Part shown: positions 40,610-61,933 of the stretch, piece by piece | How the letters are laid out: every line of letters starts with the position of its first letter | Numbering within the stretch: the first letter of the stretch is position 1 | Assembly (NCBI GenBank): GCA_965220395.1 | Contig: CBDCPT010000003.1 | Span: 136,747 to 200,746 of the forward strand | Length of the DNA stretch: 64,000 bases | From: Arenicellales bacterium | GTDB lineage: Bacteria; Pseudomonadota; Gammaproteobacteria; Arenicellales; JAJDZL01 | Direction of reading: 5' to 3' | Made by a program: the position numbers and the translations under genes | Notes under the pieces: model-generated | What the model saw: the letters and a program-made list of their open reading frames with translations, nothing else | Databases searched by the model: none | Told to the model about the DNA's origin: nothing

Positions 40610-40880
40610 CGCGATCCGAATGGAGGTGCTCGTCGGCGCACACGACGAGCGTCAGTTAGAGATGCTTCGCGGCTGCTTGCGATGGCAGTCGTTCTTCCCA
40701 CCGAGCCTGTGCACTACGATGATGCGGCCGCGCTGTTCCGTCGATACCGCAGTGAAGGGGAAACCGTGTACAGGCTGATTGATTGCCTCATAGCCGCGGT
40801 CACGACCTGCATCGACGTGCCAGTGTTGCATCGCGACAGAGTATTTGACGTGTTGACCTGCTACATCGAAATTCAAACGT
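40610..40880 (+). pseudogene. VapC PIN toxin C-terminal remnant
   Basis: EVLVGA..YDDAAALFR..GETV..LIDCLIAAV..VLHRDRVFD. Confidence 0.7.
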
Positions 40881-40889
40881 TGAGTAACG

Positions 40890-41225
40890 CCACTAATAGT
40901 TGTGCTGTCAGCGCAATACCAACCTTTAGGCATCCTTCAGCGCAAGTCGAAAAGGCGCTGGTATCGATAATCACTCAGCATCCGCACTGAAAACTTCAAA
41001 ATCCTTCTCAACAAGGCGAAGTATGCGTCGGCTATACTCGGTGTAATCTTATAATTTCCGAAATTGGCCTTTCACCATTTTTCATATTCGCCAATTTCTC
41101 GTTTACGAATCAACTCCTCTAACAACTCAGCGAACAACTGAGTGGGAGTTACGTCTCGGTTAGCAACTGGTATCTGCGCTTGTATGAATTTGATATTGCG
41201 AAGTTCGACGGTAATTTTCATCATC
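40890..41225 (-). pseudogene. Decayed antitoxin plus VapC stub
   Basis: MMKITVEL...W*...DFE..DAE* overlapping a GTG start MIIDTSAFS. Confidence 0.5.
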
Positions 41226-42898: not shown

Positions 42899-45773
42899 TC
42901 AACCTCCATATATGTCGTGAGCCGTATCAAACACAGTTTGCAACGTATTTGATGTTCTTTGTTGTAACTCGTGCAAGTTTCTCACTTGGTCAAGCAACCG
43001 CTCACGAGCTTCATAATCGCAAGGTGTAGGAATAATCATTTCGTTATTGAAAATCTCTTCACGAACCTCTGGTTGAACGGCTGTTATCGCTAGGTAGTGT
43101 TCGTCAGAAAACTCTACATCACATTGATAATAAAGAACAATCATCCGATATTTTCAAACGAAGAAATTTCGGTTTTGGCGGATTAACGGGTTCAAAGGCG
43201 AATTTCGTTGCCAAATACCACAAACCAGCAAAATCTTCACTTTATAGAATGACATGATTAATCATTATTATCAATGTGTTAAACGTTTTCTGGCAGACAC
43301 TAGGTAGTAGATCTGCTTGCGAAAAATTTCTGATGTGAACGCAGCCCATAGGAGTAGAGCTTCCTCATGATTCTGGGGGCGCACAGCTAAAAACCCAGTC
43401 GTAACCAACTGTCCGTCAAACTCAGGGGGAATAATGACCGCTGTTCCGCGTGAGCTGTTATTACGGGCAAAGATTACATCGTTTTCTCGAACCAGAAGCC
43501 TTGCACGAGTTGGGAGGTTCTCAAACAGATTTTCCTGATACTTGACAATAGCCCCTTCCGGAGTTACATCGCCAATTTCAAAATACCGGAATACTTGACC
43601 CCTGAGAACATCCTCTTCACCTTTCTTCACAGGGGGCACTACCTCAAAATCTGATCCAGGACTCAGGCGCAGCACTCCGTTCTCCTCCGCTAACGACATA
43701 GCCTTCCGCGTGCGGTTTAGATCAAGCGAATAGTAAAATTGCGTCCAAGCGTCGATTGTCCAAGTCTTCAGGTGCCACGATGAACGCTTGAAACGGGCAT
43801 CCGAGATTCTCTCGGGTGTTGCTATTCGGTTTAAACAAATTGGGAGCAATACTGCAATCACGCCACTCGGCATACGCTTGTTGGAGCAGCGGGATGTTAT
43901 CCCGCTCAGGCGTATAGTGTTGATGGTCATCGTGGCCAATGTTGTTCAAGACCGCCATGAAGACATGTCCTTGTGTCTCTCCGGCTTCCCGTTTCTTGAG
44001 ATGCAGGATGGAGGTATGGACATTTGCTTGCGCACGGAAGAATGTGTTAAACGGAAGGGAAATCACCTGCCGTAGAATGAATCGTTCCAGAATGAAATCA
44101 CGGTACCGCTGGCTATCGACTCCATTGAGCACTGTGTTGTCGATGACTGTAAGTAGCTCGGCGTCGGGAGCCATAAGATCGTGGTAGCGCTCCAAGAACA
44201 ATACATTTGATTTCTCGGTCGCCGAGGGCTTGCCCGCAGTTGTAACAGCGATCTCGTATTGATTCAGGATACGTCGCTCGTCCTCGTTTGACTTCGTGTA
44301 ACCCATCGAAAATGGAGGGTTGGTAAGAACTACGTCGAACCGTAATCCATCGTCTATCAACGACTCGCTCAGCTCTTCTACCTCCCCCACAAGATCCCTG
44401 GAGAGCCCCATCGGGGACCGAATCTCCTTATCAAGTGTGTCGGCCGTGTAGATCGTGCTCCCACCATCCCCGTGAAGATACATGTTCAGGCGGGCTACCC
44501 GAGCGATCTTCTCCGCCGCGTCAATGCCATACAAATGCCGTTCATACAGGCGTTTCTTGAGTTTTTTGCGCTCTCGCTCTGTAATATCCAAACGTACGTC
44601 GATGGCGTGCACCAAAGCCGCCATCGCTTCGATCAAGAACCCACCACTGCCGCAACACCCGTCCAAAACAACAGGGAGATCCTTCCCTCTTACCCGAAAC
44701 CTGGCGGAGCGCACCATGTACTTCACCACGCTTCGAGGTGTGAAGAACTGGCCCAGTTCCTTCCCGCGCACGGTAGCGTTCAAGAATGTCTCGAACATCC
44801 GACCATTCAAATCCTCGTCGATCCCGTGCAAGTCGAAGTGTTGCAACCGCTTTACCACATCCAAAACTGTTTCCGACCGGAGATTGAGAACTTCATTAGG
44901 GAGGAAAATTCGTTTCTTCTCTTTCAGGGTAATCTGGTTCTCCAAGTCTTCTCGAATGCGACGGAATAGCAGGTCGCCGATCGGGTTGTCGCTCACGTTC
45001 TTCTCGACTTGCTCCTGAATCCATTCAACCGAAAAGTTAAAATCCGCGAGATTCGGCACCTCACCAGCCTCAATTTTGTCAGCGATTCTGCGGTCTTCGC
45101 GGAGCTTCACAAACATCAATTTCGAGAACTCGTAGAACGCATCAGTGGGTCCATACTTCTCCTTCTTCCAGATCAGATTATGGCAGTCATTAAAGGTGCG
45201 GATCAGATCGTTCAGGTCGGGACGTGCGAATTTGAAGACGCCTTCCGTTGCCCGTGCTACATCAATCGAGCCGAAAGAAATAAACGAACGAAGTTGAACG
45301 AACTTCGAATTGTCTTCCTCAAAGTCGTCGAATTCAAGTTTAAGCAAGGGGGTTGCGCTATCCCAAGCCCATAGAACGAGTTGAATCCCGTTCGTCACGC
45401 AGATATACCGCACTGGGTTCTCATTCTCGTATCGTTGGTTTAGTCCCAAAGCATAGCCCGCGACCTGATAGTGGTATTTCTCAGGCTGTTCTCCTGGAGA
45501 TTTTGCGTCTAGGACTACGACGGGGCGCGAACTGCGATCCAATAACACATAATCTGGTCTGAACATCTCCTTCTTGCTACCACGCGCTACGGCGACTTTG
45601 TGCAACGCAGTCTTGCGCTTAACTGCATCGTCTGGGTAACGCAACTTCGCGATCAGGCGGTCTACCACGTAAGGCTCAACATCAGCCTCAGATGTTAAGG
45701 TCGACCGTTCTACGAAAAGATTTTTCACTCTTTTGGGCAGTGCCTCAATGCAACCGCCCGTCTCGTCCACCAA
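42899..45773 (-). pseudogene. Fused nuclease / N6-adenine methyltransferase / TRD protein (type IIG-like RM) with a frameshift and a MITE
   Basis: RPDYV..LDAK, GQFFTPR, DGCCGSGGFL, NPPF. A +1 shift near 43740 (RRLDA/FYYS) and a 210-bp insertion in IYYL|AITAVQPE join three ORFs. Confidence 0.85.
43097..43300. mobile_element. MITE (~204 bp) in the RM gene
   Basis: Imperfect TIR gtgttcgtcagaaaac / gtgtctgccagaaaac; flanking duplication taggta (end placement ambiguous by 1-2 bp). Excision restores the frame. Confidence 0.85.
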
Positions 45774-46740
45774 CTAAATCGGCATATTTCAGTCGCTTGC
45801 CAAACAGCCCTCGAATAGTGCAGTCGATTTGCACCATCGTATCCAGTTGGCGAACATTCTGCCTGGCACTGAATTCGTCTACATATTTCTGTAGGTGCTT
45901 TGGACTCATCTTGTGGTAGACACCGTAGTATCCGCGCTTCAAGCAAGACCAGAACGATTCCGCTCCGTTTATGTGCGCTTGTCCCTTTACATACTCGCCA
46001 ATCGAGTGCTTAACGGTTTCATGTGTGTATCCATAGTTTTCAATCCCATCGTAAGCAGTGGTATCATCAGTGTAAACTGTAGAACCAGTTGAAACGCTAT
46101 CACAGACAATCTGATGAAGTGTTATGGCTTTGGTGTTTGCGACCTTGAATGACTTGATATTCTTGCTTTTGCGTTCCTTGATTCCGACAACAGCGGTCTT
46201 GCCGACAGCGCCTCTACCGGCATTCAGTTTTTTGTCCTTATGCTTATTCTTCTTTGATACGTTATTTGCCCAGCCAGTTCTGATTCGATGTGCCATAAAC
46301 CAAGCGGCAGACTGATCGACTTCAACTTCACAGCCAAATAACTTTGATACGTTATTTGCCCAGCCAGTTCTGATTCGATGTGCCATAAACCAAGCGGCAG
46401 ACTGATTTACTCCAACGTCATTTCCAAGTTTGGTGCTTGAAACACCTTTGAGGGAAGTTGAAAGTTGGTAGATCGCCATCAACCATTGCCTGTATTTGAT
46501 ATTGCTACCTTCCATCAGAGTTCCAGTTTTAACGCTGAAGTAACTTCGGCAAGGTCTGCACCAGTAAGGCATCGTTTTATGCTTGGCACTGCTTGTTTTT
46601 TCCGAATTGCACTTGGGACACACTCGACCATCTGGCCAGCGTTTTGATTCGATATAAGCCATTACATCTTGTTCTGTTTGAAACCGAGACATGAATTCGT
46701 AAAGGCTGACTCGCTTTCTTTCGTTTTTGTTCTTACGCAT
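45745..46740 (-). CDS. IS1595-family transposase with an internal duplication
   Basis: RWPDG..CPKC..C..C zinc ribbon, SAAWFMAHRIR, VEVD, YTD, HINGAESFW, HLQKYVDEF. Confidence 0.9.
   Translation of the reverse strand: MRKNKNERKRVSLYEFMSRFQTEQDVMAYIESKRWPDGRVCPKCNSEKTSSAKHKTMPYWCRPCRSYFSVKTGTLMEGSNIKYRQWLMAIYQLSTSLKGVSSTKLGNDVGVNQSAAWFMAHRIRTGWANNVSKLFGCEVEVDQSAAWFMAHRIRTGWANNVSKKNKHKDKKLNAGRGAVGKTAVVGIKERKSKNIKSFKVANTKAITLHQIVCDSVSTGSTVYTDDTTAYDGIENYGYTHETVKHSIGEYVKGQAHINGAESFWSCLKRGYYGVYHKMSPKHLQKYVDEFSARQNVRQLDTMVQIDCTIRGLFGKRLKYADLVGGRDGRLH
46252..46406 (-). repeat. 65-bp exact direct repeat inside the transposase
   Basis: 46252-46316 = 46342-46406. Confidence 0.92.
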
Positions 46741-46974
46741 AATATACTTCCAACATCAAATGAATTTTCTGTATTAGTAAGTATATTCTAAAATTTCAGG
46801 TTTGTCAACTATTCCGTATAATTCCCTTTCAAATACCACCTGATGAGTTAACATAATTCGAATGACATCGGACATGCTTAGTTCCATACTGACTGGCGCC
46901 GCAATGCCTTCATTATTAATTTTATTATTGATGCCAGCGCGAACAACCGTATTTTCGCTCATGTTTTCGCGACT

Positions 46975-47160
46975 CATTTGGTTGCCTCGCAGCACAGCAG
47001 GAACTGTTTATCTATGGTCATTTCTTGAATGGAATCCTAGTGCGGCTTGGTAACACCTCATTTGGGCCATTGACAATGCCGCTGATTATGGTGGCGACAT
47101 GAAAGATATTTCTGGTGAAACTTCGGATGATTAATCCGCTTCCTTCGAATTCCAGACAAT
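46975..47160 (+). pseudogene. 3' remnant of DUF2791 ATPase upstream of the helicase
   Basis: PRSTAG..FLEWNPSAAW*HLI..GGDMKDISGE aligns with PRNTVT..ILKQNPTAVWSDLI..GDDMSDISDGE of 52103..53407. Confidence 0.7.
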
Positions 47161-49328
47161 CCAAAGGATTTGATCGGCTGGCGAAACCAGTCCAGAGATG
47201 GATTTGGCAGAAAGGCTGGAACAGTCTTAGAGATATACAGGAATATGCGATACCAGCACTGTTAGACGAGCAGAACGACCTGATCATTGCCACCACAACA
47301 GCCAGCGGCAAAACCGAAGCAGCTTTCCTGCCCTTGATATCCGCTGTACTGGAAATGCCCGGCAGCGGCGGTTTCGATCTCGCCTACATCGGTCCGACTA
47401 AGGCGCTCATCAATGACCAGTTCGAGCGTCTCAACGACCTTTGTGCCAATCTGCAATTGCCAGTCTACCCTTGGCACGGAGACATTTCCCAAGGAATAAA
47501 AGTACGTGCGCGCAAACAATCGAGTGGAATTCTATTGATCACACCTGAGTCTCTAGAAGCATTGTTCGTGCTTCGCGGTTTGGAAATTTCCGCACTATTT
47601 TCAAGTACTCGCGCGATCGTGATTGATGAATTGCATGCACTTCTAGAGAATGAGCGCGGTATCCACTTGCGCTCGCTGCTGACCAGACTTGAAATCGCAG
47701 TAAATCGGCAGATCCGACGTATTGGACTGTCGGCAACTCTAGGCGAGATGGAATTGGTCAGAGAATATCTGCGTCCCGAAGCGCCGGATTCTGTTCGGTT
47801 GCTCAAGAGCTCATCGGATCCTCGCGAGCTCCGAGTTCAAATTCGGGGATATGTCGAAAGGAATATCGACAGCGAGTCTGAATCAGCAGCAAAAAAATCT
47901 GTTGCAGAGCATTTGTTCGCAAAACTACGTGGCTCAAACAATCTGATTTTCGCGGAGTCGCGTCGCAATGTTGAATTCTATGCGGACCACTTGCGGCAGA
48001 TTTCCGAGGACGCGCGGGTGCCCAATGAATTCCATCCTCACCACGCAAGCTTGTCCCGCAGTTTACGACTGGATGTCGAGCAGCGCTTGAAGACCACAAA
48101 ATCGGCTACCGCTATTTGCACTTCAACACTAGAGCTTGGCATAGATATTGGCGAAATTGTCTGTGTGGCACAAATTGGAATGCCATTTTCAGTTGCATCG
48201 CTGTGCCAGCGGCTTGGACGTTCCGGACGCCGACTCGGACAATCTGCGGTGCTTCGCATGTATGCCGTTGAAGCTTCGACGCATTCATCGTCGCACCCAC
48301 TGGACCGGCTGCACCTTGGACTGGTGCGCGCAATAGCGATGGTGGAGTTGCTGATTGAAGGATGGTGCGAGTCTCCCGCACCACTATCACTGCATCTTTC
48401 AACGCTGACGCATCAGATTCTTTCTGTCATTGCAGAAAAAAGTGGAGCAAGTGCCAAACAATTATTCTCAATACTGTGCAAACGTGGGCCGTTTCGTCAA
48501 GTTGATGCGAAACTTTTTTCGCAGGTGCTGAAGCACATAGGAAGCAAGGATGTGAATCTGATTGAACAGGCACCGGATGGTTCGCTGCTGCTGGGCAGGA
48601 AAGGAGAGAATCTCGTAGGCCACTACAATTTCTACGCTGTTTTTCAAACTCCTCAAGAATATCGCATCGTAACGAATGGCCAACAGTTGGGTACGCTTCC
48701 TGTTTTCATGATGATATCGGAGGGAATGACAATCGTTTTTTCCGGACGTCGGTGGCGTGTAGTATCCATTAATAACGAATCCAAGGTGATTGATGTGACT
48801 GCCGATCACGTGGGAGAGCCTCCGAAATTCGGAGGGAACGCCGGTCTCGTCCACGACACCGTAGTCAATCGCATGAGAATGGTATTGTCCGGTACACATC
48901 TGCCAAACTACCTTGACAATTGTGCCCGTACCTTACTGCAAGAATCTCGGTCTGAGTTTCACGGGCTTGGATTGGCCTCCAATAGCCAGATTCAGCTTAG
49001 TGAGAGCAATGTAGTTCTGGCAACCTGGGCGGGTACAGTGAAAACCTCAACACTAGCGATTGCACTGCGATCATATGGATATCGGGCAACAGTATATGAC
49101 GGCTTTCTTGATGTAACGAATATAGCTCGCATGCCTGACTTTATTGAGGACTTGGAGACGATCGGTGTATCACACGGGCTTGATGAAAATGCGCTGCTGG
49201 ATACGCAGTTGAGTCTGGTGACGGAGAAATATCATCCGTACTTGAATCGCGATCTGCTTCTACAGGACGCATTGAGCAGTAGATTCGATTCGAATGCTTT
49301 GCCCGGAGTGATCGGACAATTGTGGTAA
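47127..49328 (+). CDS. Lhr-like DEAD/DEAH helicase
   Basis: TASGKTEAA, ITPESLE, DELH, LSAT, TSTLELGIDIG, QRLGRSGRR. Confidence 0.92.
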   Translation: MINPLPSNSRQSKGFDRLAKPVQRWIWQKGWNSLRDIQEYAIPALLDEQNDLIIATTTASGKTEAAFLPLISAVLEMPGSGGFDLAYIGPTKALINDQFERLNDLCANLQLPVYPWHGDISQGIKVRARKQSSGILLITPESLEALFVLRGLEISALFSSTRAIVIDELHALLENERGIHLRSLLTRLEIAVNRQIRRIGLSATLGEMELVREYLRPEAPDSVRLLKSSSDPRELRVQIRGYVERNIDSESESAAKKSVAEHLFAKLRGSNNLIFAESRRNVEFYADHLRQISEDARVPNEFHPHHASLSRSLRLDVEQRLKTTKSATAICTSTLELGIDIGEIVCVAQIGMPFSVASLCQRLGRSGRRLGQSAVLRMYAVEASTHSSSHPLDRLHLGLVRAIAMVELLIEGWCESPAPLSLHLSTLTHQILSVIAEKSGASAKQLFSILCKRGPFRQVDAKLFSQVLKHIGSKDVNLIEQAPDGSLLLGRKGENLVGHYNFYAVFQTPQEYRIVTNGQQLGTLPVFMMISEGMTIVFSGRRWRVVSINNESKVIDVTADHVGEPPKFGGNAGLVHDTVVNRMRMVLSGTHLPNYLDNCARTLLQESRSEFHGLGLASNSQIQLSESNVVLATWAGTVKTSTLAIALRSYGYRATVYDGFLDVTNIARMPDFIEDLETIGVSHGLDENALLDTQLSLVTEKYHPYLNRDLLLQDALSSRFDSNALPGVIGQLW

Positions 49329-49953
49329 TCAGCATGACGGTACAAGCGAATTCTAACAGTAATCCGCCTGTGGCAGATTGCGAATCTGTTTCCTGTTGAT
49401 CGCGTCAGCAAACTAGTTGAAACGAAAAATCAAGTTGATGCTGCTGGTCTGTGAGATGTCGTCAAGTACCGAAATTGAATAATGTGCTCAGAGCAATCAA
49501 TCTGTAACCTCACCAATTAATTCGTTTCGGCCACTGTTCGTACAAGCATATTGAAATGAAATTCCGTTTCGATGTAGAGAGTAAAATACAGTACTCGAAT
49601 AACCCAGCCGATTTGTATGGCTGAAGAATCGGATGGAGCGTTGATTGTTACTATCGATTTAACGCAGTCAGTCCATCAAGCTGAACTGCCGATTGAAAAA
49701 GAGTGCTAGTGATATTCGCAGTATCAAGGAATTGACGGCCAATGCTTCCGATTCGAATTATCAGTAGAATGATTGTTTTGTTATGAATCGTCTATATGAC
49801 AGATATGCAGTCGCCGTATTAATTGACGCTCAAAACAACCATATCTGACATACATGGCTGGCTGTTGCAAACAATGCAGCTGAATACCTTTGAAATGCCA
49901 GTTGATGCGTAAACTCGATAAACTTTGCCAGGGCTAAGGGATCAATTAGGAAA

Positions 49954-52113
49954 TTGAAAAAGAAAAAGAAAGGAAAATCAAGAACCATAAAAGCCAGTAG
50001 ATCTTCACGGTCTCGAAGGTCGAATAGAAAGTACAAAAGTCGGTCCGTCAGAGCGAAGGGTCCCTGGGTTCCGTTCGGACAAACGGCAACGGTTGCAGGG
50101 CACAACATCTGGGATATGGTCTATGTCGGAAGACCTCCGATATTTGAAGACGGTATAAGGGCAGACAGTGGATTTATAGACCCCCATCTGCCTGTTGCAA
50201 GAACAGGTATTGACTATCATGGCGACGGGATATATTACTGGCCGCCTAACTACACTGATATGTCCAAGCAATCTCGTGCAGCCTATTTGTATTGGCTGGC
50301 CAGCGGTCGCTCCAGCACCAATTACAGTACAAGCTATGTGCTGTTGTACTTTATCGGACTAGAGAGGCGATTTTTCTTCGACACCGCACCCTTGGAGGAA
50401 AAAATATTAATAATCACTGAAGTAGAACGTCTTTTGGAAATATATGGCGATGACTCGGCTTTGGAAAATTGTTTAGGGAATTTCGTCAGTGCAGCCAAGC
50501 TAATAATGGGATTGGATCAGAAAATCGCACCATCTGTCAAGTATCAGCAATCAGGTTCCTATACCTCCGTACTCGCTACCATAGGTATTATGGCGGATAT
50601 GAAAAAACCACTGAACGGTGAGCAACTGCTGAACTGGTATTTGGTAACGTATAGCTTACGTTCTGCTACCCTCCGCATTTTTCCTGAATTCAAGGCGCTT
50701 TTCATTTCGCTTTTCGATGAGAAATATCCGCAAGGATTGAAGATCCATGTCTCAGATTGCCACGTCAGCATCACTTATCTCGCGATTTCGTTCAACTATC
50801 GAATTGACCTAAGTGATTTCATTGGCCCCATTCCTGATGTTTCAGATCAAGCCAGACCTCTATTTGACGCCGACTCGCTTGCTGACGAAGCTGAAAAAAC
50901 TCTTGAGGGGTTCGGTCGATATTTGGGAAACAGTCCCGAACGTCGAGAAACGATTAAAGCATATGCGCTGTTGCCCGCACGAATTCGGGATCAATTTCCC
51001 TGCAGAGAAGCGGAGGAAATCTCGTCTTGGGCGAAAAAGCTAGTCAATAGCAATGCATACATTCAGGCGGAAAAGATTATTGAAAAACTTGAAGGCAGGC
51101 CGTTCGAAAGAATTAGTAGAGCACAGTTGACTAAAGCTGTGGACAAATTGGCATATCTGTCAATCGGTTTGGCGCCTGATCCGAGGTTCACGTTGTACAG
51201 CCTGAAGCCCGAGGATTCGGTAGTTCTATATCAACTGCCTGAGGCCACGATATCACTTGACGAAGCCAGCGAGAACTACTGGAGCACTTATCAAAAACTG
51301 ACTATTGCCTGTTTTGTCGCTCATTCAGATGGGCATGTTTCTGCGCGGGAACGAAGCCAACTGAATACACTAATTTCAACCAAGAAATTAACACCAGCTG
51401 AAAATATCCGATTGGGAGCTAACTTTCGCTGGATGCTCTTAGTACCGCCCAAGCTGCCAATGATACGGCAGAATCTGAAAAAACTGCCTGAACTGTCTAG
51501 GCAGGATCTTGGACAAATCGCTTTGTCAATGGCAGTAGTTGATGGCACAATTCCTCCGGAAAAAGTGGAAGCAATAACAACGATTTATAAACTGCTGGAA
51601 TTGGATGTTGCCAACGTATACAACGACTTGCACTCGCAATCCATCGGAAGCGAACCAGTAATCGTCAGATCCGCAAGCAACGGACAACAGGCATTTGCAA
51701 TTCCATCAACTCGCGAACGAAATACCAAGTTTGAGCTTGATTCCATACGGATTGATTCTGTCATGGACGACACTGCCCGAGTGTCAGCAGTACTGGGAGA
51801 TATTTTCGTAGACGACAAGCAGGATATCGAGTTCGACGAACGCAACGATGAAACCGAACTCTTACCTGGATTGGACTATCAACATGCAGCGTTTGTTGTC
51901 GAACTAATCGATCGCAGCCACTGGGAGGATGAAGAATTTGAACGGCTTGCAGCCCAGTTCAATCTGATGCCGGGAGGCGCGTTGGAAACACTGAACGAAT
52001 GGGCGTTTGAACAGTTTGAGGAAGCATTGATTGAGGAATATGAAGGTTATAATCTCAACTCGGATGTGGTGGTAGCAGTTAAACACAATTTGAGAACAGA
52101 ACATGGTCCATAA
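49954..52113 (+). CDS. TerB-N / TerB / TerB-C domain protein
   Basis: YWP.Y......RAAYL.WLA.GR, YFIGLERR, AHSDG, LMPGGALETLNEWAFE; start uncertain. Confidence 0.85.
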   Translation: MKKKKKGKSRTIKASRSSRSRRSNRKYKSRSVRAKGPWVPFGQTATVAGHNIWDMVYVGRPPIFEDGIRADSGFIDPHLPVARTGIDYHGDGIYYWPPNYTDMSKQSRAAYLYWLASGRSSTNYSTSYVLLYFIGLERRFFFDTAPLEEKILIITEVERLLEIYGDDSALENCLGNFVSAAKLIMGLDQKIAPSVKYQQSGSYTSVLATIGIMADMKKPLNGEQLLNWYLVTYSLRSATLRIFPEFKALFISLFDEKYPQGLKIHVSDCHVSITYLAISFNYRIDLSDFIGPIPDVSDQARPLFDADSLADEAEKTLEGFGRYLGNSPERRETIKAYALLPARIRDQFPCREAEEISSWAKKLVNSNAYIQAEKIIEKLEGRPFERISRAQLTKAVDKLAYLSIGLAPDPRFTLYSLKPEDSVVLYQLPEATISLDEASENYWSTYQKLTIACFVAHSDGHVSARERSQLNTLISTKKLTPAENIRLGANFRWMLLVPPKLPMIRQNLKKLPELSRQDLGQIALSMAVVDGTIPPEKVEAITTIYKLLELDVANVYNDLHSQSIGSEPVIVRSASNGQQAFAIPSTRERNTKFELDSIRIDSVMDDTARVSAVLGDIFVDDKQDIEFDERNDETELLPGLDYQHAAFVVELIDRSHWEDEEFERLAAQFNLMPGGALETLNEWAFEQFEEALIEEYEGYNLNSDVVVAVKHNLRTEHGP

Positions 52114-53407
52114 GCAAATCAAACCGCGGGAACGCGATGCGATTATTCAATCACTGTACGCTGGCGTAGTGCCCAAGTTGGGATTGCAGCATATTCAAGT
52201 GGGTCGAGCACGCGAGATTGAGGAACTGGTAAAAGATATTGACCGAATCCGCGACGGCGGTGCGGCGATTCGATTCGTGATTGGCGAGTATGGATCAGGA
52301 AAGACATTCTTCCTGAACTTGATCCAACTCGTCGCATTGGAAAAAGGAATGGTGGTCATGTCTGCCGACTTGGCGCCCGCTCGACGAATTCATGCATCGG
52401 GAGGACAGGCTCGATCTCTGTACGCAGAAATGGCGCGTAATGTGTCGACTCGAACAAAACCTGATGGTGGCGCCATGGCTTCAATCGTGGAACGCTTCAT
52501 CAGCCAGGCAGTACGCGAAGCACAGAAGAGCAACCGCGAACCGGCTGAGGTGATCCATGACAAACTGGCCCGTCTGGAGGAGTTGACAGGCGGATTCAGC
52601 TTTGCTACTGTGGTAACGCAGTACCTGGATGGCTTCAATTCTGGGAATGATCAACTCAAATCATCTGCATTGCGCTGGCTGAGAGCGGAATTCTCTACTA
52701 AAACCGAGGCTCGTTACGCACTTGGCGTGCGTACGATTGTTGACGACGCAAGCGTGTACGACCATCTCAAGATATTTGCGGAATTTGTGTGTGAGGCCGG
52801 ATATCAGGGACTCGTCGTGTCACTGGATGAACTAGTAAACATTTACAAGTTGATGTCATCGCGCGCTCGCGATGCAAACTTCGAGCAGATCTTACGCATA
52901 TTGAATGATGTGTTGCAAGGCAGTGCGAGTCACATGGGATTCATTTTCGGTGGGACGCCGGAGTTCCTGATGGACACCCGCCGCGGTATGTACAGCTATG
53001 AGGCTCTGCAGTCCCGATTGGTTGAAAATTCTTTCGTACGAGACAAGTTTGTCGATTTTGCGGGTCCTGTGATTCGGCTTTCCAACCTTGCACCCGAGGA
53101 TGTGTACGTTCTTTTAATGAATATCCGTCGAGTGATGCAGTTTGAAACTGATGAGTTTCCAGACGAAGCACTCAAAGGCTTCATGCAACACTGCGCAGAT
53201 CGAATTGGTGAGGCATATTTTCGGACGCCTCGCAATACCGTAACTCAGTTCGTACACCTACTATCCATTCTGAAACAGAATCCGACGGCCGTCTGGAGTG
53301 ACTTGATTCGTAGAGTTGATATTAGCAAGGACGAAGGGGATGATATGAGCGATATTTCCGACGGCGAAGACGATGAACTTCAGTCCTTCAAACTCAAAGC
53401 TGTTTGA
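52103..53407 (+). CDS. DUF2791 / BrxD-like ATP-binding protein
   Basis: AGVVP..GL..IQVGR..E, GEYGSGKTF, LDELVN, YSYEALQSRL. Confidence 0.88.
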   Translation: MVHKQIKPRERDAIIQSLYAGVVPKLGLQHIQVGRAREIEELVKDIDRIRDGGAAIRFVIGEYGSGKTFFLNLIQLVALEKGMVVMSADLAPARRIHASGGQARSLYAEMARNVSTRTKPDGGAMASIVERFISQAVREAQKSNREPAEVIHDKLARLEELTGGFSFATVVTQYLDGFNSGNDQLKSSALRWLRAEFSTKTEARYALGVRTIVDDASVYDHLKIFAEFVCEAGYQGLVVSLDELVNIYKLMSSRARDANFEQILRILNDVLQGSASHMGFIFGGTPEFLMDTRRGMYSYEALQSRLVENSFVRDKFVDFAGPVIRLSNLAPEDVYVLLMNIRRVMQFETDEFPDEALKGFMQHCADRIGEAYFRTPRNTVTQFVHLLSILKQNPTAVWSDLIRRVDISKDEGDDMSDISDGEDDELQSFKLKAV

Positions 53408-53465
53408 AGGACCTGAAATTACATCCAAGCTAGTTCATCGGTGATCATGGCCCAAATGGGAATTG
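53373..53465 (+). pseudogene. N-terminal stub of a second Lhr-like helicase
   Basis: MNFSPSNSK..SKLVHR*SWPKW resembles MINPLPSNSR..AKPVQRWIWQKGW. Confidence 0.5.
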
Positions 53466-54077
53466 CCGTTGAAGAATTCATTAGCAAACAGGAACACTGC
53501 AATGAATTTCAGAACGTCAGAACGATTTGGATACGACGATATTGTTGCATCCTGATGCCCTTTTTTGACAACATAATCGTGATCGTTCAAAGTCGTTGGA
53601 TGGACAATTTGCATTGCTCCGCTCCGGTGAACTTGCAGGTTGTTACCCGTTTTGTTCAGTTGTGTAAGGGGAATCGCACCGTGTTTACACAGGGTGCGAT
53701 TCTTTTTATGAAAGTCTGTCTTGGGCCATGTTCGAGGTCGCGAAAATGAGCATGCTGCTGTTTCGATTTATTTCGACAAATTCTCGTTTCGACGCGAATT
53801 ATTGCAGGAAATTCACGGGGTTCTTCACTGGTTTAATTTGGGATACTACAATCCCGCTGAACACTCAGCAGTCACAAACTGGCTGCGTTTGAATGCATGG
53901 TTCGCAGAGGCTCTGCAGAACCTATAATCAAATTTATAATGAGTAAAATCTTGTCTGAATGTCCGGGTGTTCCGTGCAGATTCGCCTTGTTGCCACAAGC
54001 GGGAATCGAGATATGTCGTAGAGGGATGCGACCAGAAGACAAATTTGATTTATTGTTGACTTCTTTATTGGCACCCC

Positions 54078-54656
54078 ATGAGTGAACGAGTAATAGGCGT
54101 ACGCATCGAACTTCGGGATATTGAGCCGAAGATCTGGCGGCGAATTGAAATTCCTGTCAACGTTTCGCTGACCACGCTGCACGATATCATCCAGACCGCA
54201 TTTGATTGGGATGGTATCCACTTATCGGGATTCCAGATCAAAAGCGAGTTCCATACCGTACCTCACTTCTATGATTATCCAGAGGATGATGATCATTGTA
54301 CTGACGATATCTGTTTGGAAGATGTTGTTGGCTCCGGAATAAAGCGGTTTAGCTACATCTATGATTTTGGTGACAATTGGGAGCACATAATCATTCTTGG
54401 AAAAGTACGCGTTACCGATTATGCCGTTGACTATCCCAAGCTTCTCGGTGGCGCCCGTTGTGCCCCAATTGAAGATACCGGAGGCATTTTCACGTACTGC
54501 GAGTTTCTTAAAGCACAGAGTGATTCAGATTGTGAACTAAATGACGACTATGATGAAGATGATCCGGTGTCGTGGTTGAAGGCAATGGAGTTCGACCCGG
54601 AAAAATTCGACGAAGCCGGTCTAATCAATAAACTTAAGAAAATTGGTATGCCGTAA
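54078..54656 (+). CDS. Plasmid pRiA4b ORF-3 family protein
   Basis: PKIWRRI..LHDIIQ.AF.W...HL, YIYDFGDNWEH, PIEDTGG. Confidence 0.88.
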   Translation: MSERVIGVRIELRDIEPKIWRRIEIPVNVSLTTLHDIIQTAFDWDGIHLSGFQIKSEFHTVPHFYDYPEDDDHCTDDICLEDVVGSGIKRFSYIYDFGDNWEHIIILGKVRVTDYAVDYPKLLGGARCAPIEDTGGIFTYCEFLKAQSDSDCELNDDYDEDDPVSWLKAMEFDPEKFDEAGLINKLKKIGMP

Positions 54657-55399
54657 GCATACTTTGACCTGTAGTTAAAGCTAGAGAGTTCCAGCAATAC
54701 TGCCGACTAATTACTTTCGTGTCAGCATGGTTTTGTGGGGTATCCATGCGAGTGGAGTAAATTGAATTGCTGCTACAAAGGAGTTGTTTCGCTGAAATTA
54801 CATGCTGTATTCATTGGTACTAATCCAACCTCAATTCTGTCGAGATCGGTCTTATTGTCAAAGCAGATTTGGCAAGCGGTTCCGGTGCGGACTTCAGGCC
54901 AACTTGAAACCCGACCAGATCAAAACGGCGTTCCTCGTACCTTTCGTAAAGCCAAGGCAAACTCAATACAATCGACATTAAAATATTCGTTTTTAGATGT
55001 GATTAGAAGTGTTTTACACTCGATTTCACCAACCGATTCAACGCATAGCCAGATGCACCGATTCTGATCTGCTCATACCTGCGAGTTGAAGGAAAAAAAC
55101 AGGTGCAAAGAATACCCCAAAGCCGCTAAAAATTCAGAATATCTGACATTGCAACAATTCAGATTGATATCTCAAACACCAGACACAGATCCGTTCCAGG
55201 GTCGTTCAGACCCTCTCTGGTGGCGACCTCGCAAAGCACATGAAAAATTCGGTTGCAGCGCGGCTTCACCATGGACTGGAAGCGTGCGGCGAGCTGTTTG
55301 CGCGATGGGCAGGGGATCAGATCGGTCGGCATCTGGACACCGCTTTGAGAAATATGCGCCCGTGTCTGGTGCAGTCAAAGACAACTGCTCCAGCAGTTC

Positions 55400-55720
55400 T
55401 TTTTCAACCCGCGATGCGCATCACTCGCAATTTGAACGTCACGCCATCCATTGACGAGCAGCCCAGTCCGACGGAGAGATAGCGTTGGGCGGGGCAAGGA
55501 TTTGTCACACAAATCAGGATGTTCAATAGCTTCAAGGAGTAGTTTCACAACATCTACGACTTGCTCGTCGACTGCTATGCCATGTTCGAAGAACACTCCC
55601 AACAGCCGGTTCACAAGGGCGATCCGAGTGTTGCTTTGGGTGTCATTCTCCCCTGGAATTTCTTGCAAAGCACGTCGAAGGAGTACATAAACGTAACGAG
55701 CCAGGATTTCAGAGCGGTCG
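55400..55720 (-). pseudogene. Probable N-terminal remnant of a PLD/helicase (DUF3427-type) protein
   Basis: IALVNRLL..LPRPTLSL..TGLLVNG..D.QI pattern, matched from memory. Confidence 0.4.
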
Positions 55721-56409: not shown

Positions 56410-58517
56410 CAGGTGTTTCCCATGCTTTTTTTGATGTCAGAATATCCTGACAGGCGGTAACTGAAGTAATTCGCTCGACCACGGCTGTTGCGCTCATTAT
56501 GGTACAGTTTCGGTAATTGATGCACAATATTGCGTTTGTACGGAGCGAATTGTGCAGTCTCGACAATGGCAACCAAACGCAAGCGGACTGCGGCGCTTGT
56601 ATATTTCGGCTCAATCCGGGATTTGAAGCACCGCTTCAGGTCGGTGAGAATAGTGCGGCGAAGGCCTCTTTACGATTCAGGTTGAAATGGCGCAGTGCCT
56701 GCGGCACTGACTCGAAGCGGCTTTGGTTGAAAATCAGCGCCAGCGCAATGTTGTTGCACATCGCACGATTGCTCGGGCCATGGCCAGTACGGGTCAGACA
56801 GGCGTCTTCCTGGAATGTACGGTCCCGAATATGATGGTTGCTGTTTTCCACGGTCCAATGTCCGCGGTCCCACCTCAGCAGTTGCTCGGCATCGGCCCGT
56901 TCAGCGGCAACCGAAGTGATGCCATATATCGTCTCTGTGCTTGCACTGTTCGCTTCTTTGACTACCTCGCGGTCGCGCTCGATGCGAAACGCTTGGCGCA
57001 CCTGCTTGAAATCGAACTTGTGCGGGTCGTCCACTTGCAGTACTTCAATACGACGTTGCTCAATGCGACCGTGCGCCAGGGTCACCTTCTCCGAGTAACG
57101 CCGCACTTTGTGACTGTACCACTTCAGCGACTTCGCCTTCGCTAACTGCAAAGAGGTATTGTCCTTGAGCGTCAGCATATAGTCAGCCTTCCCGTCCAAG
57201 ATCAAATCGACGGTTTCAAAAGTGGTGTGCAACGCATCCAGTGTGATCACTCGACCCGCAACGTCAACCTCGCTCAGCAACTGCCGAGTCACATCCAACT
57301 CCTCGCCCTTGTTGTGGAAACTGCGGCTTGCTTTCGGTATCCCACTGCCATGCTCCACAAGTGTCACTGTCTCGTAGTGACTGTCGCCATTGCGATTGGC
57401 ACCGCGAATCCGCTTGCCGTCACTCGCAAGTGCCGGTAACTGTCTGATTCGATTGTGCGTGTATCGCGCCAAGACCTGCTCCAGCTGATCCGGATCGGTG
57501 TGCTGTATCACCCGGTGCAGCGTCGATTTGGAAACCGGCTCATACCGGCCTGTTTTCGGATTGCACCAGCCACCGATCGCGTGCAGCTCATTCTCAGAAA
57601 GAGACGCTGCAAACTGTGCCGCCGCCAACGATCCGTGAAATCCAGACAATTGCGCCAAAATCAAAGTCGAAAACGCACACGCCAGTGTGTGCTTGCGACC
57701 CTGGCCACGACGAAAATCCCGCATCTGTGACAAATCATCATGCAAACTGCGCAACTCCGGCAGCGAATGACCGCTGGCCTTGCCCTTTTTCTGCCAGCGC
57801 GACTCCAACTCGCCTTCCTGACACAGGACCCGCCTAGCATCACGACGCAAGGGCCTGACCAATAACCGCTTGATTGCATCATGCGCTTCGGTATACTTCC
57901 CACCCTTGCGGGAATAGCCCGCACTGTTTCCCACCGTCTCCCATCCGGCTGCATCGTACATGTTTCCGCGATGACGAGCCGGGTCTACAAACGTCTCCGC
58001 CAACAACAAACCGTGACCATAGTATGCCTCCCAGTCATCACTTAAGCGCCGGCAAATCAACTTCAGCACGTGCGAACCAAGATTCGGATAACAACCGGCA
58101 TCGTCAAGCATCGCGAAACGGGTGTTGTTCGCGATCAAATGCAATCGGTGCCACTGCTGCTCAGGCTGCCAGCCAATCCAATGCTCGCGCGCAGCCGATT
58201 TAAAGGAACCGGTCTGCCACCCGCAAAGACACACCCACTGCCCCTTATACTCAACGATGTAACGCAGACTGCGACCTGCAAATCGCTTGAATCCAAGATC
58301 ATGATGCGTACGCATCAGCCGATCCCACTTCGCAAATTCGCTCGTGCGCGCAAGACGTACCGTCACCTCGCCAGTGCGAATCGACTTGCTGGTTCTGCGG
58401 TCATGACTGTTCATAACCGCATATATACTATATCGGTATGGAAAAAGCCAGTCCTGCCTGCAAATTTATACAACCGTTGTGGTTTTACTGTGATTTAGTT
58501 AGCGTGGGAACACCCTG
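56410..58517 (-). mobile_element. ISAs1-family insertion sequence, 2108 bp
   Basis: TIR caggtgtttcccatgc / cagggtgttcccacgc; 9-bp target duplication GAATCGAGT (56401-56409 / 58518-58526). Confidence 0.9.
56636..58414 (-). CDS. ISAs1 transposase with N-terminal DUF4338 (DruA-like) domain
   Basis: N-terminus RE.WIGW..IANNTRF..ETFVD; C-terminus DFRR.QG, DGK..RG, TLDALHT, HGRIE.R, RGHW.VEN..H..RD..F.ED. Confidence 0.88.
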   Translation of the reverse strand: MNSHDRRTSKSIRTGEVTVRLARTSEFAKWDRLMRTHHDLGFKRFAGRSLRYIVEYKGQWVCLCGWQTGSFKSAAREHWIGWQPEQQWHRLHLIANNTRFAMLDDAGCYPNLGSHVLKLICRRLSDDWEAYYGHGLLLAETFVDPARHRGNMYDAAGWETVGNSAGYSRKGGKYTEAHDAIKRLLVRPLRRDARRVLCQEGELESRWQKKGKASGHSLPELRSLHDDLSQMRDFRRGQGRKHTLACAFSTLILAQLSGFHGSLAAAQFAASLSENELHAIGGWCNPKTGRYEPVSKSTLHRVIQHTDPDQLEQVLARYTHNRIRQLPALASDGKRIRGANRNGDSHYETVTLVEHGSGIPKASRSFHNKGEELDVTRQLLSEVDVAGRVITLDALHTTFETVDLILDGKADYMLTLKDNTSLQLAKAKSLKWYSHKVRRYSEKVTLAHGRIEQRRIEVLQVDDPHKFDFKQVRQAFRIERDREVVKEANSASTETIYGITSVAAERADAEQLLRWDRGHWTVENSNHHIRDRTFQEDACLTRTGHGPSNRAMCNNIALALIFNQSRFESVPQALRHFNLNRKEAFAALFSPT

Positions 58518-60435: not shown

Positions 60436-61602
60436 CTAATCATCAATATCTTCATTCAGAATTGAGATGTACTGAGCATATGAATAAATGCGGTTTCGCT
60501 TTCTATTCGTAATTTCACGAGCAATTCCAGCCTGTTCAAGCGCAGACATGCCATTCGTAACTGCAGGAATCGAAAGATCGGTTTCAGTAGCGATATTTCT
60601 AAGAGTTGAAATTGGACGCAATTGAAGCGCTTGTTGAACAAGCAAAGCTGAGGCCTTGAAACGCGCGAAATTTCGAATTCGTAACGAGTCGTCACGAAAA
60701 AGCACATTAAGTCGACTAGCGACTGAAATTGCGTTCTTTGACGTTTCAGTGATGCCCTCAAGAAAGAATCTTAGCCAAGCCTCCCAGTCGCCGTGATGTC
60801 TTACGGCATCCAGTAACGAATAATAATCACTTCGATTTTTTTTAAAATGTAGACTGAGGTACAAGATTGGCTCACTCAGTAACCCTTCGTGGCACAATTG
60901 CAAAGCGATCAATAAGCGTCCCACTCGTCCATTTCCATCAAGAAAGGGATGAATCGTCTCAAATTGAACATGGGATAGTCCGGCCCGAATGAGAGCCGAA
61001 TGTCCACGATCATCGGAATGCATATAAAGCTCCAAATCAGACATACACTTTTCGACAAAATTTGTTGGTGGTGGTACGAAACGAGCGTTTCCCGGGCGAG
61101 TTCCTCCTAGCCAGTTCTGAGATCGCCGAAATTCTCCAGGTAATTTTTTACTCCCCCGGCCAGAAGATAAGAGTTTCTTGTGAATCTCGCAGATTAGACG
61201 ATTACAGAGCGGAAAATTATCTTCTCGTATACGTCGGAATCCGTATTCAAGGGCGGACACATAGTTTGAGACTTCAACTACATCGTCTACTGGAACCCCC
61301 GGAGCTTGGGTCAACTCGAATAGCATAAGATCCGACAAGGTGGACTGCGTTCCTTCAATCTGTGATGAGAGTACCGCTTCTCTTCGGATATATGCATAGA
61401 TAAATAGCCATGGCTCAGGCAGTATCGTCGCAATGCTGTCCAGTTGCCCTAGTGCAAATATCGCGCTGTCTAACGAATGCTGTAAATACTTCATATCCAG
61501 AACATCTTTTGGCGGCAGCGGATTTGGAATAAAGGCTCTTACTTGTTCATCTCCAATGGATGTAATTTCATAAAATCCTGTTTGTTGACGTTTCATGACC
61601 AC
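60436..61602 (-). CDS. Fic family protein
   Basis: EAVLSSQIEGTQ, HPFLDGNGRVGR. Confidence 0.92.
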   Translation of the reverse strand: MVMKRQQTGFYEITSIGDEQVRAFIPNPLPPKDVLDMKYLQHSLDSAIFALGQLDSIATILPEPWLFIYAYIRREAVLSSQIEGTQSTLSDLMLFELTQAPGVPVDDVVEVSNYVSALEYGFRRIREDNFPLCNRLICEIHKKLLSSGRGSKKLPGEFRRSQNWLGGTRPGNARFVPPPTNFVEKCMSDLELYMHSDDRGHSALIRAGLSHVQFETIHPFLDGNGRVGRLLIALQLCHEGLLSEPILYLSLHFKKNRSDYYSLLDAVRHHGDWEAWLRFFLEGITETSKNAISVASRLNVLFRDDSLRIRNFARFKASALLVQQALQLRPISTLRNIATETDLSIPAVTNGMSALEQAGIAREITNRKRNRIYSYAQYISILNEDIDD

Positions 61603-61610
61603 TCTGATTG

Positions 61611-61729
61611 TTCAGCAACGTTTAATAAGGGATGTTGTTATTAAGCATTATTGGATTATACTTAATAGTAACCAGAATTTCCTCTCATTATTCAGCGACA
61701 TTTAATAAGGGATGCTGCTATTAAGTATT
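61611..61729. repeat. Two imperfect ~39-bp direct repeats upstream of fic
   Basis: ttcagcaacgtttaataagggatgttgttattaagcatt / ttcagcgacatttaataagggatgctgctattaagtatt. Confidence 0.8.
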
Positions 61730-61933
61730 TGGAGAGAATTCTTAAAAACAAAATCGAGCACTAAACCGAATACAGCGTCAAAATTTGAAAGAGGAATAAT
61801 CTGGCAAAGATTACCCAAGAAGAATTGGGTGACGCAGCCTTGGAACTAGTACTGGAAAAAATAGTCTGTTCTCACGCTGGTCTGAAACAGGATGCAAATT
61901 CCGACTGTGTAATTTAACTCGAAAGCCGGAAAT

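What the first reader, a model, noticed from the sequence alone, without database searches (positions are those of the whole stretch)
46975..53465. TerB / DUF2791 ATPase / Lhr helicase set rebuilt from two reciprocally decayed copies
Seen: order is helicase, gap, terB, ATPase. A degenerate ATPase 3' end overlaps the helicase start, and a helicase N-terminal stub overlaps the intact ATPase end. Known: the usual order is terB-ATPase-helicase, and BrxD/BrxHI of type 2 BREX belong to the same families. Inference: two divergent copies each lost complementary genes, leaving one full set, which implies selection for a three-component, probably anti-phage system that is poorly characterised.
Basis: partly seen in the sequence, partly recalled or inferred. 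Interest (0 to 1): 0.7.

Follow-up and report, generated by a model that had tools for sequence, protein, structure and literature searches.

The report
Shango phage-defence operon in permuted order
This is a known three-gene anti-phage system (Shango) whose helicase gene sits in front of the other two instead of behind them, an old rearrangement shared with related species that left one clear gene scar and one faint one.

Summary
The three genes are real and intact: helicase 47115-49328, TerB protein 49954-52113 and ATPase 52103-53407. PADLOC names them SngC, SngA and SngB over nearly their full profiles, so this is Shango, a system validated against phages in 2022-23.

The ATPase 3' remnant before the helicase (46982-47155, two in-frame stops) is significant (profile E 4.5e-6). 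The helicase stub after the ATPase (53373-53444) is weak. Its first 11 codons lie inside the ATPase tail, as in every canonical locus. The rest passes only a fixed-register test (13 of 5000 shuffles).

Order A-B-C holds in 77 of 80 surveyed loci. Order C-A-B is not unique to this genome. Four of 31 species genomes of the genus carry it, and they form one clade (support 100) with one topology in all three gene trees. All three genes are under purifying selection (dN/dS 0.05-0.24).

The helicase and the TerB-ATPase pair share the same nearest canonical relatives, so "two divergent copies" is not supported. The best reading is a head-to-tail pair of closely related operons with reciprocal losses in an ancestor. 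The left ATPase seems to have died later, in this lineage only.

This is a new variant of a known system, of modest interest.

The parts
45744..46827 (-). IS1595-family insertion sequence (transposase ORF 45745-46740). It abuts the DNA that holds the sngB remnant.
   Evidence: Pfam DDE_Tnp_IS1595 1.1e-35 and its zinc ribbon. The ends come from matches to three other copies in the genome at 78-88% identity. Contigs of related strains match the window only from 46827 onward and differ before it.
46982..47155 (+). Remnant of the 3' end of a second sngB (ATPase) gene. It has two in-frame TAA codons and overlaps the sngC start.
   Evidence: tblastn E 2.5e-7. Genome search 44% identity with 2 TAA. 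Canonical-only profile E 4.5e-6, SngB positions 376-426 of 439. It is the only Shango remnant found in a six-frame profile scan of the held loci.
47115..49328 (+). sngC, an SF2 DExH helicase (Lhr/BrxHI-like). It is intact. By comparison with relatives, the likely true start is the ATG at 47127.
   Evidence: PADLOC SngC 1.4e-255, profile positions 3-715 of 720. Pfam DEAD and Helicase_C. N-termini of relatives. GKT, DELH and QRLGRSGR motifs are seen in the translation (motif names recalled).
49329..49953 (.). Spacer between sngC and sngA: 625 nt here, 175-207 nt in the three other permuted loci.
   Evidence: Gap lengths, and no similarity between gaps beyond the sngA 5' end. No repeat of it elsewhere in the genome. 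No Rfam match. Single-base and 3-nt indels between near-identical strains at 49367, 49445, 49657 and 49864.
49954..52113 (+). sngA, the TerB_N/TerB/TerB_C protein. It is intact except that its last residues are in a shifted frame relative to close strains.
   Evidence: Pfam TerB_N 3e-37, TerB_C 8.1e-23, TerB 8.3e-5. PADLOC SngA 3.2e-63. Three related runs lack one base at 52073. The other frame there ends like the tails of homologues.
52103..53407 (+). sngB, the BrxC_BrxD/DUF2791 P-loop ATPase. It is intact.
   Evidence: Pfam BrxC_BrxD 2.2e-146. PADLOC SngB 6.3e-171, profile positions 2-439 of 439. GSGKT and LDE motifs are seen in the translation (motif names recalled).
53373..53444 (+). Putative 5' stub of a lost second sngC: ATG inside the sngB tail, 23 codons, then TGA. 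Read-through similarity may run to about 53460.
   Evidence: Frames. Not significant by profile. Local alignment of the whole stub: 0 of 300 shuffles as good; of the part after the sngB stop: 27 of 300. Fixed-register test: 13 of 5000.
53515..53850 (.). 336-bp repeated element inserted just after the stub.
   Evidence: Four full copies at 83-84% identity plus partial copies elsewhere in the genome. One related run has 4600 other letters between exactly these two boundaries.
54078..54656 (+). PRiA4_ORF3-family gene. It is single copy in this genome and linked to the permuted block in three of the four species.
   Evidence: Pfam PRiA4_ORF3 4.1e-44. Single copy. Homologues lie directly upstream of sngC in G005 (51% identity) and at the start of the G007 contig (42-45% identity).

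Best explanation
The locus is a complete Shango anti-phage system: SngA (TerB-domain protein), SngB (DUF2791/BrxD-like ATPase) and SngC (Lhr/BrxHI-like helicase). Its gene order is circularly permuted to sngC-sngA-sngB.

The permutation most likely began with two closely related Shango operons lying head to tail, probably a tandem duplication: A1-B1-C1-A2-B2-C2. The right-hand helicase (C2) was lost early, before the four permuted species split. That loss left a nearly erased 5' stub. The left-hand TerB/ATPase pair (A1-B1) was lost later and more than once. In this lineage the loss left the last ~50 recognisable codons of B1 in front of C1.

The surviving C1-A2-B2 block has since been inherited as one unit under purifying selection. 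In this arrangement sngC has lost its usual translational overlap with sngB and must be expressed from its own upstream signals.

How Shango stops phages is not known. By its domains it is an NTP-driven nucleic-acid surveillance complex without a recognisable nuclease. This last point is inference.
For: Identity as Shango: PADLOC gives near-full-length SngA, SngB and SngC hits, and Pfam domains agree.

Canonical order: A-B-C in 77 of 80 surveyed loci, C-A-B in 2, and one locus cut by its contig end.

Shared permuted block: it occurs in G000, G005, G007 (same contig as L019) and G041 (same contig as L020), which is 4 of 31 species genomes of the genus. The 3 other Shango carriers in the genus are canonical.

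Co-inheritance: the four form a clade with SH-aLRT 100 in the A, B and C trees. All three trees give the topology (G0,(G5,(L019,L020))) and the nearest outsider L022. The B and C trees place the clade in the same 20-row set.

Purifying selection within the clade: dN/dS is 0.10-0.16 for sngC, 0.18-0.24 for sngA and 0.05-0.07 for sngB, with dS between 1.0 and 2.3.

Duplicated junction: the sngB remnant is significant. The stub shows in-register similarity in G0 (13 of 5000 shuffles as good) and in L019 (34 of 5000).

Remnant is younger than the clade: it keeps 9 of 12 columns that are at least 90% conserved and 12 of 20 that are at least 80% conserved. That is roughly 0.13-0.25 neutral changes per site, against a dS of 1.26-2.3 between G0 and the other three. 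No remnant was found upstream of sngC in G5, L019 or L020.

Close copies: the remnant's highest identity among 82 SngB proteins is to this genome's own SngB (50% of 48 columns).

Not an assembly artefact: a contig from run X1, which may be the source sample, covers 46802-55500 with no differences. Contigs from three other studies at about 94-96% identity are collinear over remnant-sngC and over spacer-sngA-sngB.
Against: No genome with the proposed intermediate (A-B-C-A-B) was found among the 80 loci, the genus or the metagenome scan.

The stub is not significant by profile or by local alignment. The fixed-register test was chosen after looking at the data, and for L019 the register was also chosen after looking.

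The age estimate of the remnant rests on 12-28 columns and on near-saturated dS values.

The remnant's preference for its own SngB is slight (50% against 46% for several others), so its origin cannot be placed on the tree.

The PRiA4_ORF3 gene lies upstream of sngC in G005 and G007 but downstream of sngB here. The simple tandem model does not explain this without a further rearrangement.

No promoter for sngC could be shown: 15 promoter-like sites were found against 10.2 +/- 3.3 expected.
Confidence: 0.6

Rival explanations
1. Two independently acquired, already divergent Shango systems lay side by side, and each lost what the other kept. The present set is therefore a chimera of two lineages.
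For: The remnant is only 39-48% identical to any intact SngB in pairwise alignment. That is less than the 57% between this genome's SngB and the canonical same-genus G003 SngB over the same C-terminal stretch. Defence islands often stack related systems, and this one also holds a type I-like methylase and specificity-subunit fragment, a Fic gene and transposases.
Against: The gene trees show no incongruence. They give the same clade, the same internal topology, the same nearest outsider (L022) and the same 20-row neighbourhood for the helicase and for the ATPase. A sliding-window comparison shows no mosaic in the helicase. The remnant has changes at family-conserved positions and two stop codons, so decay alone can account for its distance. 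Its best match is this genome's own SngB.
Confidence: 0.15
2. Duplicative translocation. A mobile segment carrying sngC and the last part of sngB, perhaps together with the neighbouring PRiA4_ORF3 gene, was copied to a site upstream of sngA. The original sngC was then deleted down to a stub. There never were two whole operons.
For: A PRiA4_ORF3 gene lies directly upstream of sngC in G005 and at the start of the G007 contig, and it is single copy and linked to the block here. Members of this Pfam family have been annotated as putative transposon resolvases (recalled from the Pfam description). No trace of a left-hand sngA exists anywhere in the held loci. The block sits among IS elements and in different surroundings in each genome.
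Against: In this genome the PRiA4_ORF3 gene is on the other side of the block. It was not found within 5.4 kb upstream or 10 kb downstream of the block in L020. The remnant looks younger than the clade. That fits an sngB gene that stayed functional for a long time better than a fragment that was dead on arrival.
Confidence: 0.15
3. The scars are chance similarities. The C-A-B order is simply a stable alternative operon layout with no duplication behind it.
For: The stub fails the profile and local-alignment tests. Three of the four permuted loci show no ATPase remnant.
Against: The ATPase remnant is significant by three searches, one of them with a profile that excludes the permuted clade. It lies exactly where the canonical sngB 3' end lies relative to the sngC start codon, and its read-through tail still resembles the canonical sngB tail.
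Confidence: 0.04

Closest known systems
Shango defence system (SngA/SngB/SngC). Sources: Millman et al. 2022, bioRxiv 10.1101/2022.05.11.491447, and Johnson et al. 2023, NAR, PMC10250203; passages read.
   Same: It has the same three proteins, each matching the PADLOC Shango model over nearly its whole length. They are adjacent on one strand and lie in a region rich in mobile and defence genes.
   Different: The gene order is C-A-B instead of A-B-C. The sngB/sngC overlap, which probably couples their translation in canonical loci, is broken. A 625-nt spacer precedes sngA. Scars of a second copy flank the block. I found no mention of a permuted order in the passages read. I did not search the literature specifically for it.
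BrxD and BrxHI of type 2 BREX / Pgl-like systems
   Same: SngB and SngC belong to the same broad families. The second-best PADLOC hits are BrxD at 5.2e-42 and BrxHI at 4.4e-124.
   Different: The Sng models score far better. No PglX, PglZ or BrxA-C genes were seen among the neighbours scanned. The nearby methylase matches type I/II methyltransferase models. A TerB protein is not part of BREX (recalled).
TerB-N/TerB-C gene neighbourhoods with ATPases and helicases described by Anantharaman, Iyer and Aravind 2012 (seen only as a citation; content recalled)
   Same: The TerB_N-TerB-TerB_C architecture lies next to a P-loop ATPase and an SF2 helicase.
   Different: That work predicted a conflict role from gene context. 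This locus is a member of the later, experimentally tested Shango subset.

Membership tests
Shango | SngA: protein with TerB-type domains | tested here: met
   PADLOC SngA 3.2e-63. Pfam TerB_N 3e-37, TerB_C 8.1e-23, TerB 8.3e-5.
Shango | SngB: DUF2791/BrxC_BrxD-type P-loop ATPase, full length | tested here: met
   PADLOC SngB 6.3e-171, profile positions 2-439 of 439. Pfam BrxC_BrxD 2.2e-146. P-loop GSGKT seen in the translation.
Shango | SngC: DEAD/DEAH-box SF2 helicase, full length | tested here: met
   PADLOC SngC 1.4e-255, profile positions 3-715 of 720. Pfam DEAD 3.6e-29 and Helicase_C 4.3e-14.
Shango | The three genes are adjacent on one strand | tested here: met
   All three lie on the + strand within 47115-53407.
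Shango | Usual operon layout sngA-sngB-sngC, with the sngC start inside the sngB 3' end. This is typical of the family, not a formal criterion. | tested here: not met
   The order here is C-A-B. Of the surveyed loci, 77 of 80 are A-B-C. The overlap is seen in canonical loci.
Shango | Protects cells against phage infection | not testable with these tools
   Shown for Pseudomonas aeruginosa PA14 and E. coli systems in the papers read. Not tested for this locus.
BREX type 2 | BrxD and BrxHI accompanied by PglX methyltransferase, PglZ phosphatase and BrxA/B/C | tested here: inconclusive
   Only neighbours within about 10 kb were scanned. None matched a Brx or Pgl model, and the Sng models outscore the Brx models for both proteins. 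The whole genome was not searched for BREX genes.

The most novel reading that the evidence does not exclude
The ancestor of this clade ran a 'two sensors, one motor' Shango: two TerB-ATPase pairs (A1-B1 and A2-B2) sharing a single helicase gene that lay between them. That state persisted for a long time in this lineage before A1-B1 was lost. If so, SngC can serve SngA-SngB pairs in trans from a separate transcription unit, and Shango is modular. The A-B-A-C locus L050 would be an independent case of sensor duplication. The linked PRiA4_ORF3 gene may be a fourth, clade-specific partner or the agent that moves the block.
Probability: 0.25. Interest if true: 0.5.

Novelty: new variant of a known kind. 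Interest (0 to 1): 0.3.

Why it matters
Shango's mechanism is still unknown. As of a 2025 preprint it was unclear how TerB-domain defence proteins protect cells (passage read).

This natural, conserved variant removes the helicase gene from its overlap with the ATPase gene, and the variant has survived long divergence under purifying selection. That indicates the three proteins do not need co-translational assembly in the canonical order. It also gives a ready-made construct for testing which pairs must be made together.

The scars are a worked example of how a defence operon can be circularly permuted by duplication and reciprocal loss. Order-aware annotation rules should tolerate such layouts.

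Beyond that, the locus is an ordinary member of a known family.

Tried and rejected
- **Metagenome scan with SngC**: only two short contigs at 54-60% identity, with no context.
- **Rfam scan of 46700-54100**: no match at E up to 0.1.
- **Promoter and terminator scan**: counts were not above the shuffles, so nothing can be said about sngC expression.
- **Sequencing runs**: no RNA holder listed.
- **Earlier notes of this scan**: nothing to show.
- **Profile test of the stub** and **DNA local alignment of the stub against the sngC 5' end** (230 of 500 shuffles as good): both negative.
- **PRiA4_ORF3 remnant in the sngC-sngA gaps**: none found.
- **Recombination mosaic in sngC**: none seen.
- **IS ends**: no terminal inverted repeats or target duplication were found at the BLAST-defined ends. 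I therefore cannot tell a simple insertion from an IS-mediated deletion.
- **The 155 nt between the IS end and the recognisable remnant (46828-46981):** a weak out-of-register profile hit (E 0.57-2.2) is treated as noise.
- **Synteny of the flanks among the four permuted loci**: only scattered matches to mobile genes, so there is no shared chromosomal site.
- **Failed scripts:** searches failed because of clashing hmmsearch options (diagnosed). One search used an empty reference group. All were redone.
- **Not done:** structure and complex prediction were not run, because they would not bear on the question.
Full report
**What is there**

Three long + strand ORFs fill the finding:
- 47115-49328, 737 aa
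- 49954-52113, 719 aa
- 52103-53407, 434 aa

Pfam gives DEAD plus Helicase_C for the first. It gives TerB_N, TerB and TerB_C for the second, and BrxC_BrxD (formerly DUF2791) for the third. PADLOC identifies them as SngC (1.4e-255, profile positions 3-715 of 720), SngA (3.2e-63) and SngB (6.3e-171, positions 2-439 of 439). BrxHI and BrxD are distant second-best hits.

This is therefore the Shango defence system. Two groups described it in 2022-23 as a TerB / ATPase / helicase operon that reduces plaquing of several phages (passages read). Its mechanism is unknown. A 2025 preprint still calls the role of TerB defence proteins unclear (passage read). The nucleotide-binding motifs of both enzymes are present in the translations (motif names recalled).

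**The two scars**

*The ATPase remnant is real.*
- tblastn of the intact ATPase against the window finds 46985-47161, aligned to aa 376-434, at 41.7% identity and E 2.5e-7.
- The whole-genome search returns only the intact gene and this place, with two in-frame TAA codons.
- A C-terminal profile built only from 78 canonical-order SngB proteins scores it at E 4.5e-6.
- In a six-frame profile scan of all held DNA of the four permuted loci it is the only Shango remnant. No sngA remnant was found anywhere.
- It ends on the sngC start, exactly as a canonical sngB does.

*The helicase stub is much weaker.*
- In canonical loci the sngC ATG commonly lies 25-28 nt before the sngB stop. The ATG at 53373 and the next 11 codons are therefore simply part of the sngB tail.
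- Beyond the sngB stop, a profile test is negative (700 of 1000 shuffles score as well).
- A local alignment is also not significant (27 of 300 shuffles).
- Only a test in the register fixed by the ATG, chosen after inspection, stands out: 13 of 5000 shuffles for this genome and 34 of 5000 for L019. It is not significant for G5 or L020.
- I regard the stub as probable but unproven.

**How usual is the order**

I anchored a survey on SngB in one-genome-per-species contigs and examined the best 80 of the 324 relatives found. Of these 80:
- 77 have A before B before C on one strand. One of them (L050) has a second terB gene between B and C.
- 2 have C-A-B (L019, L020).
- 1 is cut by its contig end.

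Within the genus, 7 of 31 species genomes carry Shango. G000, G005, G007 and G041 are C-A-B. G003, G008 and G009 are canonical.

**Is the block one unit**

Quick IQ-TREE trees (LG+G4) of SngB (82 rows), SngC (79 rows) and SngA (73 rows) each place the four permuted loci in one clade with SH-aLRT 100. Rows shorter than 400, 680 and 600 aa respectively were dropped.

- Rooted on L022, all three trees give (G0,(G5,(L019,L020))), with support 99 for the inner trio.
- The nearest outsider is L022 in all three trees.
- The B and C trees put the clade inside an identical set of 20 rows (support 86 and 100).
- A sliding window along the helicase shows no segment that is closer to canonical loci than to the clade.

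So the helicase and the TerB-ATPase pair have travelled together since the clade's ancestor, and they come from the same Shango subgroup.

Within the clade, dN/dS is 0.10-0.16 (sngC), 0.18-0.24 (sngA) and 0.05-0.07 (sngB), at dS of about 1.0-2.3. All three genes have been kept by selection in the permuted layout.

**Dating the scars (inference)**

The remnant keeps 9 of 12 columns that are at least 90% conserved across 82 SngB proteins, and 12 of 20 that are at least 80% conserved. That suggests roughly 0.13-0.25 neutral changes per site since it was released from selection. The synonymous distance between this genome's genes and those of the other three species is 1.26-2.3.

No remnant is detectable in front of sngC in the other three. 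The stub is nearly erased, and its trace is shared with L019.

The simplest history has three steps:
1. Two closely related operons lay head to tail.
2. The right-hand helicase was lost before the clade split.
3. The left-hand TerB-ATPase pair was lost later, separately in this lineage and in the other.

The remnant's best match among all SngB proteins is this genome's own SngB (50% of 48 columns, against 46% for several others). That agrees with close copies but is not decisive.

**Support from other strains**

- A contig from run X1, which may be the source sample, covers 46802-55500 with no differences.
- Runs from other studies hold contigs at about 94-96% identity. They are collinear from 46827 through the remnant and sngC, and from 49116 through the spacer, sngA and sngB.
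- They differ upstream of 46827, where this genome has the IS1595 copy. The remnant therefore predates these strains. The IS junction is specific to this genome or its closest kin.
- Single-base and 3-nt indels between strains fall just upstream of the recognisable remnant (46962, 46966) and in the sngC-sngA spacer, as expected of non-coding DNA.

The gene identities, the permuted order, the ATPase remnant, the Brx kinship and the inference of selection all hold. The following points do not:
- The system is a known, tested one.
- The rearrangement belongs to an ancestor shared by at least four species.
- The copies do not look divergent.
- The stub is largely the obligatory sngB/sngC overlap.

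**Open points**

- A PRiA4_ORF3 gene is single copy here and lies downstream of the block. Its homologues lie directly upstream of sngC in G005 and G007. This would fit a circular or tandem intermediate, or a role of that gene in moving sngC. I could not decide between these.
- No intermediate genome (A-B-C-A-B) was found.
- Nothing could be learned about transcription.

Noticed in passing
window 54078-54656; L017 (G005, reverse strand; 4202-4885 in oriented coordinates); L016/L019 1-165: A PRiA4_ORF3-family gene is single copy in this genome. It is linked to the permuted Shango block in three of the four species, downstream of sngB here but directly upstream of sngC in G005 and G007. The two layouts are circular permutations of each other. 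A 35%-identical homologue also lies next to the canonical Shango in L051.
   Followed up: partly
L050 7915-16220: A canonical-clade locus with the order sngA-sngB-sngA'-sngC. The two TerB genes are both intact and 53% identical to each other. The second sits between sngB and sngC, and sngC lacks the usual ATG overlap. This is an independent rearranged Shango with a duplicated TerB gene.
   Followed up: partly
window 52073 (3' end of sngA): Contigs of three related runs lack one base here. In this genome the extra base shifts the last residues of SngA. The tail becomes 8 residues longer, no longer resembles the tails of homologues, and makes sngA overlap the sngB start by 11 nt. A contig from run X1, which may be the source sample, agrees with the window.
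   Followed up: partly
window 53515-53850: A 336-bp repeat has four full copies (83-84% identity) and several partial copies in the genome. In one related run, 4600 other letters lie between exactly the same two boundaries. The short element may therefore be a miniature derivative of a larger mobile element, or the site may be a hot spot.
   Followed up: partly
SngC residues ~600-737 (window ~48900-49325) and SngA residues 1-40 (window 49954-50075): The C-terminal part of the helicase is 56-70% identical within the permuted clade but only 29-54% identical to canonical relatives. This is a much steeper drop than in the rest of the protein. The lysine/arginine-rich N-terminus of SngA behaves likewise. 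These parts may have co-adapted after the rearrangement.
   Followed up: no
window 43271-45773: A type I/II-like N6-adenine methyltransferase (683 aa, - strand) has an ORF that runs 30 nt into the IS1595 copy. A 222-aa fragment next to it matches specificity subunits only weakly. No restriction subunit was seen among the ORFs scanned. It is probably a decayed restriction-modification system.
   Followed up: no
window 56636-58414 (- strand): One 592-aa ORF combines a DruA-like region (Pfam DruA 1.3e-14, residues 32-166) with DDE_Tnp_1 transposase domains. It has no PADLOC hit.
   Followed up: no
window 60436-63136 (- strand): A Fic/DOC protein with a Fic_N domain and an AAA_14/DUF4143 ATPase lie next to each other downstream. 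Together with a PIN fragment at 40682-40990, they mark the region from about 40 kb to 63 kb as a mobile/defence island.
   Followed up: no
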